A stretch of 64,000 nucleotides of DNA from an uncultured virus (IMG/VR IMGVR_UViG_3300044646_001246). Its lineage: Duplodnaviria > Heunggongvirae > Uroviricota > Caudoviricetes. The stretch lies in IMG/VR virus record IMGVR_UViG_3300044646_001246. One strand, 5' to 3'. Position numbers and translations under genes: made by a program. Under the pieces are notes generated by a model that was not told the origin of the DNA, did not search any database, and saw nothing but the letters and a program-made list of their open reading frames with translations. Positions within the stretch are counted from its first letter, which is position 1; each line of letters starts with the position of its first letter. Of this stretch, positions 3,432 through 10,957 are shown in pieces.

Positions 3432-3517
3432 CTCGAATTCTCCCGCCTTGCATTGCCCATCGTCGCTCATAAATGAACACAACGGTCCCCCTCCGCAGAG
3501 AGGGAACCTTGTGGTCA

Positions 3518-4279
3518 CTACGCACCAGAACCGGCAAACATCTCAGCCATCATCGCCTCAAAGTCCAGCGTCGGCACTGTCACAGCCACAGCCGCCACTG
3601 GCTCAACGGGGATTGCCTCAGCCTCAGCCACATCCCGCATCATCACGCCTTTTTCCACTTCCGTCAGCACATCCCGGAAGTTCCATTTGCACGCCGTACA
3701 CAACGCCACCCACTCAGTCACATCAGCGCCGCTAAGCCCTTCCTGCTCAGCAATCGCCATCGCACGCTTCACCATTGGATCGGCGTAGTCGTCCACTTTC
3801 AAGTCAAACTTGATGCAACGACTGAGAAGAGGGTGAGCGTCGATGTCCTTGAACAGCTTATCCTTGCCGACATCAGTTGTCGTGAAGATCCACGTCACAT
3901 GGGCCGGAATACGCTCCAGCACCACCAGAAGCTGCCGAATCGAGTCCTGCCGCAGTCCGTGTGCTTCATTCACGAGCACAGCACGCCCTGACTTCTGACC
4001 CAGGCATCGCATTCGCAATTGCTTCTCAAGATCCCCAATGTCTTTCGGTGTCATCCCGCCAGCGTCGATCTCGATGAAGTTGTCTTCGTCGCATACATCG
4101 CCAGCAATCAGGTAGGCAATGGAAGTCTTGCCGATTCCGGATGGCCCGGAAAGCCAGAACGCCCGCCCACCGAGCGAACCCTTGTCACGCATTCGCAGGA
4201 GGGCTTTCTTCGTCTTGTCGTGCCCCACGATGTAGTTCCATTCGTGAGGTCTGTACTGTTCGTAAAGCATCTTGGTCAT
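3518..4279 (-). CDS. AAA+ ATPase, clamp-loader (DnaX/RFC/RarA)-like
   Basis: N-terminal YEQYRP...IVGH, Walker A GPSGIGKT, Walker B variant LVNEAH, sensor LSRC. Confidence 0.85.
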   Translation of the reverse strand: MTKMLYEQYRPHEWNYIVGHDKTKKALLRMRDKGSLGGRAFWLSGPSGIGKTSIAYLIAGDVCDEDNFIEIDAGGMTPKDIGDLEKQLRMRCLGQKSGRAVLVNEAHGLRQDSIRQLLVVLERIPAHVTWIFTTTDVGKDKLFKDIDAHPLLSRCIKFDLKVDDYADPMVKRAMAIAEQEGLSGADVTEWVALCTACKWNFRDVLTEVEKGVMMRDVAEAEAIPVEPVAAVAVTVPTLDFEAMMAEMFAGSGA

Positions 4280-4530
4280 GATGGTTCTCCTGTGGACTTG
4301 AGGATTGCTTCACTGTCTTTCCAGAGGGCATCAGCATCGCAGGTACATGGAAAGGCTTTCGGGGCGAGGCAGCGTGAAGAATGGCGAATGCTTTGTCGCA
4401 GCAACTTGCACATCGCAAACAGATTAGGCAATGCCTTGATCATCTCCACGCTAACACCCGACACCTCCGTCCCATCCTCGAAGAACAGCACGCCGCCTTC
4501 GAGACTCATGTGTGTTACTTTTCTTGCCAC
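4276..4530 (-). CDS. hypothetical protein
   Basis: RBS AAAGGTGG; ATGA overlap with the ATPase gene. Confidence 0.6.
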   Translation of the reverse strand: MARKVTHMSLEGGVLFFEDGTEVSGVSVEMIKALPNLFAMCKLLRQSIRHSSRCLAPKAFPCTCDADALWKDSEAILKSTGEPS

Positions 4531-4548
4531 ACGTCACCACCTTTCACA

Positions 4549-4604
4549 CCGAACGAGATTGTTCGATCGTGGCCCTCCGCAGAGAGCCACTGTCCAACCA
4601 TCTC
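4549..4604 (-). ncRNA. conserved two-hairpin leader RNA motif, copy 1 (cUGCGg hairpin plus CGAAC/GUUCG hairpin)
   Basis: Covaries with copies at 6401-6456 and 10902-10957. Confidence 0.6.
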
Positions 4605-4620
4605 GGCAGTTCTCAGCAAC

Positions 4621-4642
4621 ACAATCGCCGTCTTAGATCACT
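4621..4642 (-). repeat. dispersed 22-bp motif, minus-strand type TGATCTAAGCCGACGATTGT (other copies 6474-6495, 8654-8675, 10407-10428, 12593-12614, 12910-12931)
   Basis: Six aligned copies at gene boundaries, same orientation. Confidence 0.8.
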
Positions 4643-6384
4643 AAGCCAGCGAGCATGTCATCCAGAAAGCTGTCCATGTCCATCTTCAATTCCTCGCCAG
4701 TCTCACCAGCAGGTTCAGGTGATTCTTCAGCCTCAACCGCGTCAACCGCCTCCGTCTGAGTCAGCCTCAGCATCCCCGCATCCGGGCCGATCCTGAACGA
4801 AGACCCAAACATCTTCACCACTTGCTTCGCTTCCTCGCCAGTGACCTGCATTTCCTCGCAAGCCTCAGCCGGGTTACGAATCCACTTCAGCAGTCGTCCT
4901 GCTTCGACATTCACCGCGAGCATGAACTTTGGATCGAAGTGAAGGTGCATATTGCCGTTCTGGAACGCACGCACCGCCACCAACACCTTCCCATTGTTCA
5001 TCATCAGCCGATTCTGCTTATTGGACTTCCACTCGTAGTTGCTCGGCTTGTCCTTACACGGGAAGCCAAGGTTGTTGGCTACCGTCACAATGTCACTGAT
5101 CAACTCATGGGCTTGATCTGAAAGCCCTCTGTGCTTCTCTCGCTCCCATGAGTATGAACTTGTTCCGATGCCACCATGAGAAACGACCATTCGGTATTCG
5201 AGCTTGTAATGGCTCGCTGCGCCCGGCTCATCACCACCGAAGTGATATTTTTTGCCGTAACGCCAGCCTGTCTCAGTCCACAGTCGCTGATTGCTCTTGT
5301 ACTTCACCACATTGCTGTCGTTGCTCAGCGTTCGGAACAGGTCAATCAACTGAGCATCGAAGTAGTCATTCGCCCACTTCGACACCCAGATCAGAATCGA
5401 GTACACGTTGTTGGCCGTGAAGTCGATCGTCACTTTGTCACTCAGGGACTTCAGGAACGCCTGACGTTGCTTTGTCGCCAGCCGTTCCTTAATGGTCCCC
5501 ATCTCGTTGAACAACGCCTGCCAATAGCGATTCTTCAACCCTGTGATCTTTAACCTGATCGCACTGAGAACGTCTTTCTTCTCAATGCCCAATTCCTTCA
5601 ATACTTGGCGGTCGATCTTCAACGCGGCCTTGTAATTGGCCAGCATCTGAGCAAGTGCGTGGTCATAAGAATCAACCAGAGATTCAACCAGATTCTCATG
5701 GGCCTTGAACAGATCCTCGTTGACTTCCTCCTTGGGGATCTCAACGTCGAACACATCAAACTCAGGCATCATCTCTTCGAGCATGGAATTGAAGGCGTCT
5801 TCGTTCCTGCATGAGTATTCAATGCGGACGATTTCAACCTTTGCATTCGCACGCCGGTCAGCATTCGAAAAGTCAAACTCCCCAAGGGACTTCACATCGC
5901 CTGAGCGTTTCTCAATAGCCTGCCGAATCTCTTTCGAGTCTCGCCATCGGCGCGGCACAACCAGATAGATCAAATTCGTGGATGCCTCACGAACAACCTT
6001 CAACATCCACGCTTCAAATTCACTGTAAGGCGGATTACAGAAGATGGCCCCTACAGGCTTATCAACCAGCGTCTGCTGCTCAAAGTCGGTCCCGATGACC
6101 GTGATATCCTTGGGCATGTTAGACAGGTGGTAAATTGCCTTCTCAATCGCAAAGCACTGGACAGACAGGCGATCGCGGTGAGTCTTGAGTTTAGCCTGAA
6201 TGGCCGTCAACACTCGACCGTCCCCAGCACCAATGTCAAGCACTGATGTTGAGCATGAATAGCCGCCGTCCAGCTCACGCAGCATGTCTAACGACACCTT
6301 GCGAATGATCTCCTCCGTTGTCGGATACCACTCGAAGTCCTCATCGTTCTCCTTCAACGCCCTGACCGTTGCATGAACGCTCAT
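4633..6384 (-). CDS. SAM-dependent amino (N6/N4) DNA methyltransferase with DUF4942-like C-terminal region
   Basis: WYPT, VLDIGAGDG (motif I), NPPY (motif IV), C-terminal FQNGNMHLHF. Confidence 0.85.
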   Translation of the reverse strand: MSVHATVRALKENDEDFEWYPTTEEIIRKVSLDMLRELDGGYSCSTSVLDIGAGDGRVLTAIQAKLKTHRDRLSVQCFAIEKAIYHLSNMPKDITVIGTDFEQQTLVDKPVGAIFCNPPYSEFEAWMLKVVREASTNLIYLVVPRRWRDSKEIRQAIEKRSGDVKSLGEFDFSNADRRANAKVEIVRIEYSCRNEDAFNSMLEEMMPEFDVFDVEIPKEEVNEDLFKAHENLVESLVDSYDHALAQMLANYKAALKIDRQVLKELGIEKKDVLSAIRLKITGLKNRYWQALFNEMGTIKERLATKQRQAFLKSLSDKVTIDFTANNVYSILIWVSKWANDYFDAQLIDLFRTLSNDSNVVKYKSNQRLWTETGWRYGKKYHFGGDEPGAASHYKLEYRMVVSHGGIGTSSYSWEREKHRGLSDQAHELISDIVTVANNLGFPCKDKPSNYEWKSNKQNRLMMNNGKVLVAVRAFQNGNMHLHFDPKFMLAVNVEAGRLLKWIRNPAEACEEMQVTGEEAKQVVKMFGSSFRIGPDAGMLRLTQTEAVDAVEAEESPEPAGETGEELKMDMDSFLDDMLAGLVI

Positions 6385-6400
6385 TGATCACCCCGTTCAA

Positions 6401-10046: not shown

Positions 10047-10069
10047 GAGTCACCGCCTTTCGTGTGTGA

Positions 10070-10165
10070 TCACAATCCGCCAACAACATCAAAGTCGGGC
10101 GGTTCATCAAAGTCCCATCCCGCAGTTGGTCCATCACCATCGCCGTCATCATGCTCACTCACCAT
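10070..10165 (-). CDS. 31-aa acidic small ORF (MVSEHDDGDGDGPTAGWDFDEPPDFDVVGGL)
   Basis: Fills the gap, overlaps the upstream stop, RBS GGAGA. Confidence 0.45.
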   Translation of the reverse strand: MVSEHDDGDGDGPTAGWDFDEPPDFDVVGGL

Positions 10166-10356
10166 TTCGCATCTCCCATCCCATAAGCCTCAGCAAACTT
10201 CATTTCCCTCACACCCTCAGCCGCCACACTGTCCTTGTGGTACGCCTTCCGTGCCTTCGGGAAGTACACACACTCATCGCCCTTCTCAATCGCCTTGCCC
10301 GTCTCAGGGCACACGCTCTTGAATCTCGCCTTCAGAAAGTACGGATCACCTCGCAT
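10159..10356 (-). CDS. hypothetical protein
   Basis: RBS GGAGG; 65 aa. Confidence 0.7.
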   Translation of the reverse strand: MRGDPYFLKARFKSVCPETGKAIEKGDECVYFPKARKAYHKDSVAAEGVREMKFAEAYGMGDAKW

Positions 10357-10455
10357 CGCACAGCCCTCCGAAGTCAGTTGGAAACCAAATCATCACCACC
10401 AACCAAACAATCGTCGTCTCTGATCACTATCACGCACGCTCGATTAGCCACCCGC

Positions 10456-10575
10456 CTATCTTGTCATCAGAAAGTATTGCCAAGAACCACCTACCCATGA
10501 GCGAAACAGACCGCCGTTCGCCACTCCTCCACGAGCATAGTATTCACGCTTCGTGATCCTGATTGCTTTTGCCAA
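10456..10575 (-). CDS. 39-aa small ORF (MAKAIRITKREYYARGGVANGGLFRSWVGGSWQYFLMTR)
   Basis: RBS GGAGGTG before TTG; below the ORF-track cutoff. Confidence 0.6.
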   Translation of the reverse strand: MAKAIRITKREYYARGGVANGGLFRSWVGGSWQYFLMTR

Positions 10576-10590
10576 TGCTCACCTCCGATC

Positions 10591-10884
10591 TCACTTGCCG
10601 CCAATAGAACGCCACAGATGCTTAACAACCTTGCCCGCTTCTGATCCTTCAACGTCCTGACAGTTGTGCGGTCTCAACTCATCATGTCTCGCGGTGAACT
10701 CAGGCTTTCCCCATCCGCTCTCAACACGACGGCAGAAGAAACCATGATTCGCCACACCAAGCACATACACGCGTTGAGCGGCATTCGGCTTAGTCTCGAA
10801 GTCGCCCGTCGTGAACAACGCAGTCACCCAGTTCATTCGCCCGTCTTGGATTTTCTCCAAGGTCTGTTCATAAGCTGCTGCCAT
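10591..10884 (-). CDS. hypothetical protein
   Basis: ATG after GGAGGG. Confidence 0.65.
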   Translation of the reverse strand: MAAAYEQTLEKIQDGRMNWVTALFTTGDFETKPNAAQRVYVLGVANHGFFCRRVESGWGKPEFTARHDELRPHNCQDVEGSEAGKVVKHLWRSIGGK

Positions 10885-10901
10885 CCTCACACCCTCCCAC
10901 A

Positions 10902-10957
10902 CCAAGCGAAATTGCTTGAACGAGGACCGCCGCAGCGGCCCTCTATCGAGCAATCAC
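10902..10957 (-). ncRNA. two-hairpin leader RNA motif, copy 3
   Basis: GAGGGCCGC-UGCG-GCGGUCCUC then UCAAGC-AAUUUC-GCUUGG. Confidence 0.6.

What the first reader, a model, noticed from the sequence alone, without database searches (positions are those of the whole stretch)
3484..10957. Repeated covarying two-hairpin leader RNA with alternative folds
Seen on the minus strand just 5' of the RBS of three genes (4549-4604, 6401-6456, 10902-10957; first hairpin only at 3484-3508). Each has an 8-9 bp stem of different sequence closed by cUGCGg, then UCRARC-AAUYWC-GYUYGG with compensatory CAAGC/GCUUG versus CGAAC/GUUCG. An upstream arm (GUGAUUGCUCGA, GUGAUUUCUCGA, GAGAUGGUUGGA) can pair with the second hairpin's 5' side and loop, giving two exclusive folds. 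Inference: a cis-regulatory switch, protein-binding site or RNase processing site. I do not recognise it as a known family.
Basis: partly seen in the sequence, partly recalled or inferred. Interest (0 to 1): 0.7.

Follow-up and report, generated by a model that had tools for sequence, protein, structure and literature searches.

The report
Refolding RNA hairpin between phage genes
An uncultured phage places a conserved, previously uncatalogued RNA hairpin in front of several of its genes; it most likely marks where the host enzyme RNase III cuts the long messenger RNA, after which the freed end refolds into a small protective hairpin, but no cut has been shown.

Summary
Real. Three full copies lie on the minus strand of a phage operon that also holds two twister-P5 ribozymes and a probable hammerhead. 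The fourth site is a full-length sibling with a different lower stem, not a lone hairpin. Homologues occur in five other phage-like lineages (one binned with a Planctomycetaceae genome), and looser variants in a podovirus. Across 14 copies both exclusive helices covary; one held-out copy changes a base together with both of its alternative partners. G·U outnumbers A·C 14:1, so the sense RNA is under selection. Intact copies favour the 23-bp imperfect stem; the 3' hairpin forms once the 5' part is removed. Neither fold covers the Shine-Dalgarno, so a translational switch is unsupported. Best reading (0.5): an RNase III processing site with built-in post-cleavage refolding. One of 40 registers fits the E. 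coli proximal-box rules, but it carries an antideterminant pair. Rivals: protein-bound element, new ribozyme. The 3' hairpin also recurs alone near transcript starts in unrelated phages. No Rfam match. The scan earlier noted analogous elements in other phages, none matching in sequence.

The parts
10902..10957 (-). Copy A, full element (5' arm 10957-10946, cUGCGg hairpin 10943-10922, 3' arm 10919-10908, tail 10907-10902); predicted cut between 10919 and 10918 (inferred)
6401..6456 (-). Copy B, full element; predicted cut between 6418 and 6417 (inferred); leads the methyltransferase-like DUF4942 gene
4549..4604 (-). Copy C, full element; predicted cut between 4566 and 4565 (inferred); the downstream gene differs in the 94%-identical strain L212
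3463..3520 (-). Copy D, sibling type: same geometry, different lower stem, own tail hairpin; begins on the stop codon of the AAA gene
7974..8037 (-). Twister-P5 ribozyme in the same stop-to-RBS slot
   Evidence: 44.5 bits, over the gathering score of 37.6
7338..7407 (-). Twister-P5 ribozyme in the same stop-to-RBS slot
   Evidence: 49.3 bits
9368..9453 (-). Probable type II hammerhead ribozyme
   Evidence: 32.7 bits, E 0.0019, below the gathering score of 37
10992..12536 (-). First gene of the operon, weak DUF932 match; ends 35 nt before copy A
   Evidence: E 2e-4, below cut-off; phrog_1362
10591..10884 (-). Small unknown gene downstream of copy A
   Evidence: no family
4633..6384 (-). DUF4942 gene with weak methyltransferase match, downstream of copy B and upstream of copy C
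4276..4530 (-). Small unknown gene downstream of copy C
3518..4279 (-). Clamp-loader-like AAA ATPase gene, upstream of copy D
3165..3431 (-). Small unknown gene downstream of copy D (start read from the sequence)
4621..4640 (-). One of five copies of a second, separate 20-nt repeat (others begin at 12929, 12612, 10426, 8673); function unexplained

Best explanation
A processing signal for host RNase III in a polycistronic phage transcript, with a built-in release step. Shown: the element is a sense-strand RNA structure with two exclusive folds that sits between a stop codon and the next Shine-Dalgarno. Inferred: (1) the 23-step imperfect hairpin forms first during transcription; (2) RNase III cuts the 3' strand just below the 2x2 internal loop, most likely between column U39 and C40; (3) the tail then displaces the 5' arm, freeing the downstream mRNA from the upstream piece and folding a 4-6 bp hairpin at its new 5' end, a few bases before the Shine-Dalgarno; (4) the upstream piece keeps the GC-rich cUGCGg hairpin at its 3' end. 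Both products are thereby end-protected. The element would do the same job as the twister and hammerhead ribozymes at other junctions of the operon.
For: Long fold favoured in 14 of 14 intact copies, P(9-42) 0.67-1.00; the 3' fragment alone folds hairpin 2 with P 1.00 in 14 of 14. Both helices covary: long fold 10 of 21 pairs with double changes, hairpin 2 four of 6. Held-out copy L262:4060-4003 changes column 42 with both partners, 9 and 53. G·U 14 versus A·C 1 among 112 upper-stem cells. About two helical turns with an internal loop is the described E. coli substrate form, and such loops can limit cutting to one strand and leave a protective 3' hairpin (PMC1540722, Introduction). Of 40 registers tested only the cut after column 39 gives A-U/U-A at +3 (13 of 14) and G paired at +4 (13 of 14); with the sibling type added 15 of 18 and 17 of 18, and U·G at +9 or +10 in 10 of 18. 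RNase III is found in 19 of 21 and RNase E/G in 18 of 21 genomes around the Planctomycetaceae bin. A gene led by twister-P5 in the window is led by the sibling hairpin in L144. The 3' hairpin alone follows promoter-like sites in 4 of 59 and precedes a strong Shine-Dalgarno plus ATG in 9 of 59 distinct viral hits, against 0.43% and 2.3% of random positions.
Against: No cleavage data. In the chosen register the +1 pair is C-G in 14 of 14 main copies, a catalytic antideterminant for E. coli RNase III (7- to 14-fold, PMC1540722), and +2 is never the preferred A-U (0 of 14). Nine of the 13 pairs counted at +4 are G·U, not G-C. The distal-box fit depends on where the box is placed: at +10/+11 it does not fit. 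The sibling type alone also fits two other registers. E. coli RNase III needs no tetraloop sequence (PMC1540722), yet cUGCGg and the 9-bp stem length are the same in 18 of 18 copies (most were found by patterns that required them). The invariant loop bases A45, A46, U47, C50 are not explained by RNase III. The rules are from E. coli, the host here is only loosely tied to Planctomycetaceae, and the 14 copies come from six lineages.
Confidence: 0.5

Rival explanations
1. A protein-bound RNA element that is not cut: a host or phage protein (or RNase III binding without cleaving) recognises the cUGCGg-capped stem or the AAUYHC loop and shifts the fold, affecting mRNA stability, antitermination or translation of the next gene.
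For: Invariant tetraloop and stem length in 18 of 18 copies; invariant loop bases kept when the stem of hairpin 2 changes; C-G at +1 is the kind of pair that uncouples binding from cutting (PMC1540722); the two folds are within 3 kcal/mol in 9 of 14 copies; the lone hairpin leads a tRNA cluster in L295; the phage encodes a CsrA.
Against: Neither fold pairs the Shine-Dalgarno, and its predicted accessibility rises by more than 0.1 in 5, falls in 2 and is unchanged in 8 of 15 copies. No GGA loop for CsrA (recalled binding rule). No candidate binding protein identified. Four copies before four consecutive genes in 1.6 kb suit processing better than antitermination.
Confidence: 0.22
2. A new small self-cleaving ribozyme. 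The active form would keep the top two lower-stem pairs and hairpin 2, with columns 2-5 pairing into the hairpin-2 loop as a pseudoknot.
For: Same slot as twister-P5 and hammerhead in the window, twister-P5 in L144 and a hammerhead-shaped fold in the podovirus operon. The consensus fold keeps 11-40, 12-39 and hairpin 2. Pairs 2-49 and 3-48 covary while 6-45 and 7-44 are broken in 10 of 14, as a pseudoknot would need.
Against: No match to any ribozyme family at E up to 10. Nearly all invariant bases are paired in one fold or the other, and the 2x2 loop varies freely, so no conserved unpaired core is evident. The joint change at 9, 42 and 53 is simplest as alternative Watson-Crick pairing. The sibling type keeps the geometry with a different lower-stem sequence. 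Hairpin 2 occurs without the upstream arm in other phages.
Confidence: 0.13
3. Mainly a cassette-boundary repeat: the copies supply an RBS module and homology for gene gain and loss, and the folds only stabilise RNA passively.
For: Strain L212 diverges right after copy C and lacks window 6741-6502. Two copies in L210 are identical except for their first base, with shared downstream bases.
Against: Upper stems differ at most positions with compensatory changes, which works against recombination between copies and shows selection on structure. It does not explain two exclusive folds.
Confidence: 0.1
4. A DNA-level element (cruciform, operator, single-strand recombination or priming site).
For: Inverted arms at fixed spacing; DNA folding energies are similar on both strands; operon genes resemble leading-region cargo (DUF932, DUF4942, RadC-like in L144 and L262).
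Against: G·U/G·T 14 versus A·C 1 and a UNCG loop on the sense strand; RNA folding favours the sense strand in 14 of 15 copies; fixed position before the Shine-Dalgarno; no sigma-70 promoter overlaps the copies.
Confidence: 0.05

Closest known systems
RNase III processing hairpins of phage early mRNA, T7 R1.1 type (determinants from PMC1540722; T7 and SP82 early-region context recalled)
   Same: Intergenic, about two helical turns, internal loop, tetraloop cap, placed between genes of one polycistronic phage operon; A-U/U-A at +3 and G at +4 in one register.
   Different: A 3' tail that forms an exclusive second hairpin, with covariation for both folds; invariant cUGCGg loop; conserved bases lie in the lower stem; C-G at +1. 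No cleavage shown.
Self-cleaving ribozymes between phage genes (twister-P5 RF02684, hammerhead type II RF02276) and RAGATH-type motifs
   Same: Same operon and same stop-to-RBS slot; a gene led by a twister here is led by the sibling hairpin in L144.
   Different: No sequence or structure match to any Rfam family; no evident unpaired catalytic core.
5'-terminal stem-loop mRNA stabilisers (listed as protective features in PMC7509114)
   Same: The predicted cut product starts with a 4-6 bp hairpin; the same hairpin follows promoter-like sites in some unrelated phages.
   Different: Here it is masked in the precursor and has a conserved loop sequence.
PeSL-type repeated regulatory cassettes of T4-like phages (name taken from earlier scan note e1-5815783; not read)
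   Same: Repeated structured module before the RBS; gene content changes at the repeats.
   Different: No promoter within the element; copies diverge by compensatory change.

Membership tests
Bacterial RNase III processing site | Helix of about two turns, with 11 bp on the determining side of the cut | tested here: met
   12 + 2 + 9 steps; 88% of cells paired over 21 pairs; 11 steps of lower stem 3' of the proposed cut
Bacterial RNase III processing site | A-U or U-A at proximal-box position 2 (+3) | tested here: met
   13 of 14 main, 15 of 18 with siblings, register after column 39
Bacterial RNase III processing site | G-C at proximal-box position 1 (+4) | tested here: inconclusive
   G on the cut strand in 13 of 14, but paired with C in 4 and with U in 9
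Bacterial RNase III processing site | No G-C/C-G pair next to the scissile bond (+1); A-U preferred at +2 | tested here: not met
   +1 is C-G in 14 of 14 main copies (U-A in 4 of 4 siblings); A-U at +2 in 0 of 18. This is an E. coli preference of 7- to 14-fold, not an absolute rule.
Bacterial RNase III processing site | U-A/U·G distal box | tested here: inconclusive
   U·G at +9 or +10 in 10 of 18; placing the box at +9/+10 rests on recall of R1.1; at +10/+11 the pairs are mostly C-G or unpaired
Bacterial RNase III processing site | Enzyme present in the likely host group | tested here: met
   TIGR02191 in 19 of 21 genomes around the Planctomycetaceae bin; the host link itself is indirect
Bacterial RNase III processing site | Cleavage by RNase III, 5' phosphate product | not testable with these tools
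   needs an in vitro assay or end mapping
Known self-cleaving ribozyme families in Rfam | Covariance-model match | tested here: not met
   no match over the copies at gathering score or E up to 10, nor in homologous loci at E up to 1
New self-cleaving ribozyme | Occurs with known ribozymes between small phage genes | tested here: met
   by fold only in the podovirus (not found by Rfam)
New self-cleaving ribozyme | Conserved unpaired core nucleotides | tested here: inconclusive
   invariant columns are paired in one fold or are loop bases; a pseudoknot form cannot be excluded
New self-cleaving ribozyme | Protein-free cleavage | not testable with these tools
   needs in vitro transcription
Translational RNA switch | One fold sequesters the Shine-Dalgarno | tested here: not met
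   Shine-Dalgarno starts 2-18 nt after column 54; no consistent accessibility change
Intrinsic terminator | U-run after the hairpin | tested here: not met
   copies A-C not listed by the scan; copy D passes its loose rule without a true U-run

The most novel reading that the evidence does not exclude
The element is a cleavage-triggered RNA device of a new kind: either a new self-cleaving ribozyme class, or a precursor that, once cut, unmasks a small hairpin with a conserved AAUUCC-type loop that unrelated phages also place at transcript 5' ends and that an unknown conserved host factor reads.
Probability: 0.2. Interest if true: 0.85.

Novelty: new variant of a known kind. Interest (0 to 1): 0.58.

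Why it matters
It is an uncatalogued phage RNA family with rare covariation support for two exclusive folds, short enough to test in a day. If RNase III cuts it, it shows a natural solution to a known problem of single cuts (the two products stay paired) and a phage that mixes enzyme-cut sites and ribozymes at the junctions of one operon. If it cuts itself, it is a new ribozyme class. Either way the recurring 5' hairpin in unrelated phages is a lead for a general phage mRNA end module and a compact part for building polycistronic constructs.

Tried and rejected
Rfam: no match to the element. HDV-like, pistol, twister-sister, hatchet and hairpin topologies were compared by eye from recalled consensus features and did not fit; no call tests this beyond Rfam. 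Integron attC: core-site-like bases flank copy B only (read), rejected. T-loop mimic: not consistent across copies, rejected. Host chromosomal repeat: model R1 matched 1 of 151 genomes of the family, the bin holding the phage-like contig; a pattern matched 7 of 401 in the phylum, of which six lacked the paired arms. Protein-based locus search with the AAA gene: nothing confirmed. Cultured phages: no meaningful match among 154 short hits. First attempt to class lone-hairpin hits as coding or intergenic failed, because the motif has no stop codon in any frame. Sequencing runs: no RNA holder was listed, so no reads were laid. No whole genome is held for the window. Literature: 0 papers for four exact motif strings, 0; Fremin et al. 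(PMC10690425) had 0 hits in the readable supplements, but its zip and PDF files could not be read, so the motif may be among their 10,006 candidates.
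Full report
Observation. In the 58-column numbering used here, columns 1-12 are the 5' arm, 13-14 and 37-38 a 2x2 internal loop, 15-23 with 28-36 the upper stem closed by UGCG, 39-50 the 3' arm and 51-56 the tail. Three cUGCGg stems of 9 or more pairs compare with a mean of 0.01 in 100 shuffles; folding z-scores are -5.6 to -6.2. The fourth site (3520-3463) has the same geometry with another lower-stem sequence and a tail hairpin of its own.

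Setting. The window is phage-like: integrase, resolvase, scaffold, RecD-like helicase, primase and exonuclease matches. The copies lie in a minus-strand run of small genes from about 12,600 to 2,000, each between a stop codon and the next Shine-Dalgarno. Other junctions of the run hold two twister-P5 ribozymes and a probable hammerhead, below the gathering score. Rfam has nothing for the element itself.

Homologues. Viral scans gave one further record of one of these lineages (2 of 18 stretches; 2 of 91 distinct matches). The genome scan gave the same copies on one contig of a Planctomycetaceae bin (2 of 14 stretches). The alignment has 14 copies from six lineages: window with its 94%-identical strain L212, the L262/L167/L269 element, L251, L144, L210/L224 and L236. 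L210 has four copies before four consecutive genes in 1.6 kb. L144 shares six proteins with the window at 42-68% identity or lies syntenic with it (five tblastn hits), has twister-P5 matches and three sibling-type copies. A 48-kb podovirus-like record has two looser variants with other loops and stem lengths (25 bits), so the tetraloop is not universal. The model matched 1 of 151 family genomes: the element is not a host repeat in those searched. The host link is indirect: a bin assignment and a tRNA-plus-CsrA arrangement shared with that contig (56% identity over 46 residues).

Structure. In the long fold 10 of 21 pairs show double changes, including all eight variable upper-stem pairs; 88% of cells pair, against 29-54% when partners are slid. 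In hairpin 2, four of 6 pairs show double changes, from few events. The tool's shuffle control ignores relatedness, so these are not probabilities. The best single datum is copy L262:4060-4003, found by model R1 and not used to build it (50 bits): column 42 changes from A to G, and both partners change with it (9 and 53, U to C), while the loop AAUUUC is kept. Upper-stem wobbles are G·U in 14 and A·C in 1 of 112 cells, pointing to the sense strand. The lower stem is kept imperfect: 6-45 and 7-44 are broken in 10 of 14, and 10-41 in the other 4 less one fully paired copy.

Energetics. The long fold wins in 14 of 14 intact copies by 0.9-11 kcal/mol, and the fragment starting at column 39 folds hairpin 2 with probability 1.00 in 14 of 14. 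The long fold also forms first during transcription (inference from order). The Shine-Dalgarno begins 2-18 nt after column 54 and is in neither fold; removing the 5' part raises its predicted accessibility by more than 0.1 in 5, lowers it in 2 and leaves it in 8 of 15 copies. So the second fold looks like a product state, not a ribosome switch.

RNase III test. From PMC1540722 (Introduction, Results part 1 of 2, section 14, Discussion part 1 of 2, figure legends part 1 of 2, passages): substrates have about two turns; internal loops can limit cutting to one strand; counting 3' of the cut, +3 must be A-U or U-A, +4 prefers G-C, +2 prefers A-U, G-C or C-G at +1 slows cutting 7- to 14-fold without blocking binding; the distal box is U-A/U·G; the tetraloop sequence is not needed. 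PMC11780869 (passages) reports similar preferences in Bacillus subtilis. I scored 40 registers on both strands. Only a cut after column 39 meets +3 (13 of 14) and +4 (G in 13 of 14). With the four siblings the counts are 15 of 18 and 17 of 18, with U·G at +9 or +10 in 10 of 18. Against it: +1 is C-G in 14 of 14 main copies, +2 is never A-U, most +4 pairs are G·U, the siblings alone fit two other registers, and the +9/+10 placement of the distal box rests on my recall of R1.1. The fit is suggestive, not proof. RNase III is present in 19 of 21 and RNase E/G in 18 of 21 genomes around the bin. A cut after column 39 would leave hairpin 2 within one base of the new 5' end.

The lone hairpin. Scans for the 14-base core with a preceding C returned 31 and 59 stretches; many are coding and are chance. 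Among 59 distinct hits, 9 precede a strong Shine-Dalgarno plus ATG (antisense 3; random positions 2.3%) and 4 follow a promoter-like site at 8-12 nt (antisense 0; random 0.43%). The criteria were set after seeing the hits, two of the 9 are the podovirus variants, and an earlier classification was uninformative. One hit leads a tRNA cluster (L295); none of 18 such loci has an Rfam match at the hairpin. This suggests, without proving, that hairpin 2 is a module with its own role at RNA 5' ends, and it leaves the conserved loop unexplained.

Slot evidence. The gene at 7319-7026 follows a twister here; its homologue in L144 follows a sibling hairpin. Strain L212 lacks 6741-6502 and diverges just after copy C. 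The elements thus mark cassette junctions as well, but their divergent stems argue against recombination homology as the main role.

Verdict. A real, uncatalogued phage RNA family with two selected folds. Most likely an RNase III site with post-cleavage refolding (0.5); otherwise a protein-bound element (0.22), a new ribozyme (0.13), a cassette repeat (0.1) or a DNA site (0.05). It works like a T7 R1.1-type site on present evidence, but one E. coli feature is not met and no cut is shown, so it is not filed as a member. Not found in print; PMC10690425 (listing and readable supplements) could hold it in files I could not read. PMC7509114 was seen as passages, PMC11061315 as a listing only. Sequence look-ups in this scan's notes found no look-alike; word look-ups returned analogous elements in other phages, which I did not test and do not count as support.

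Noticed in passing
window 12929, 12612, 10426, 8673, 4640 (minus strand); L144 7331, 6640, 4071; L212 224, 2062: A second 20-nt repeat, consensus TGATCTWAG-N-CG-N-CGAT, mostly at or just after stop codons; possibly an operator, a phage promoter element or a small RNA hairpin. Unexplained.
   Followed up: partly
window 7974-8037, 7338-7407, 9368-9453 (minus strand): Two twister-P5 ribozymes and a probable type II hammerhead with a loop-loop contact, all directly before ribosome-binding sites.
   Followed up: partly
window 43824-43900 and 44070-44264; L262 415-73: A tRNA followed by a phage-encoded CsrA-family gene (PF02599, E 5e-15); the same arrangement is in the related Planctomycetaceae-binned contig.
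   Followed up: partly
L262 5720-4880 and 1970-1440; L144 2451-1250 (minus strand): A third repeated intergenic hairpin (about 9-10 bp, loop region CTC...GTGAG) before RBSs, six copies in L262 and four in L144 by eye; no Rfam match.
   Followed up: no
L312 2034-2098: Hammerhead-shaped three-way fold with CUGAUGA, GAAA and GUC core positions, z -3.6, missed by Rfam; one stem has the same GCGAAU loop as the neighbouring motif variant.
   Followed up: partly
L284, L295, L319, L320, L330, L337, L355, L325, L368 (at the scan match): The hairpin GAGC-AAUUCC-GCUC near promoter-like sites, before Shine-Dalgarno sequences, ahead of a tRNA cluster, capping a terminator-like stem, or masked by a longer upstream stem, in unrelated viral contigs.
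   Followed up: partly
window 12786-13469 (+): A 227-residue ORF divergent from the operon with no Pfam or PHROG match; it contains one copy of the second repeat and may be a regulator (guess).
   Followed up: no
window 14100-14700: A low-complexity GGT-rich tract and short tandem repeats in the non-coding stretch between the operon and the integrase-like gene.
   Followed up: no
window 15106-16350 and 18430-19923 (+): A tyrosine-integrase-like gene and a serine recombinase with two resolvase domains in the same phage.
   Followed up: no
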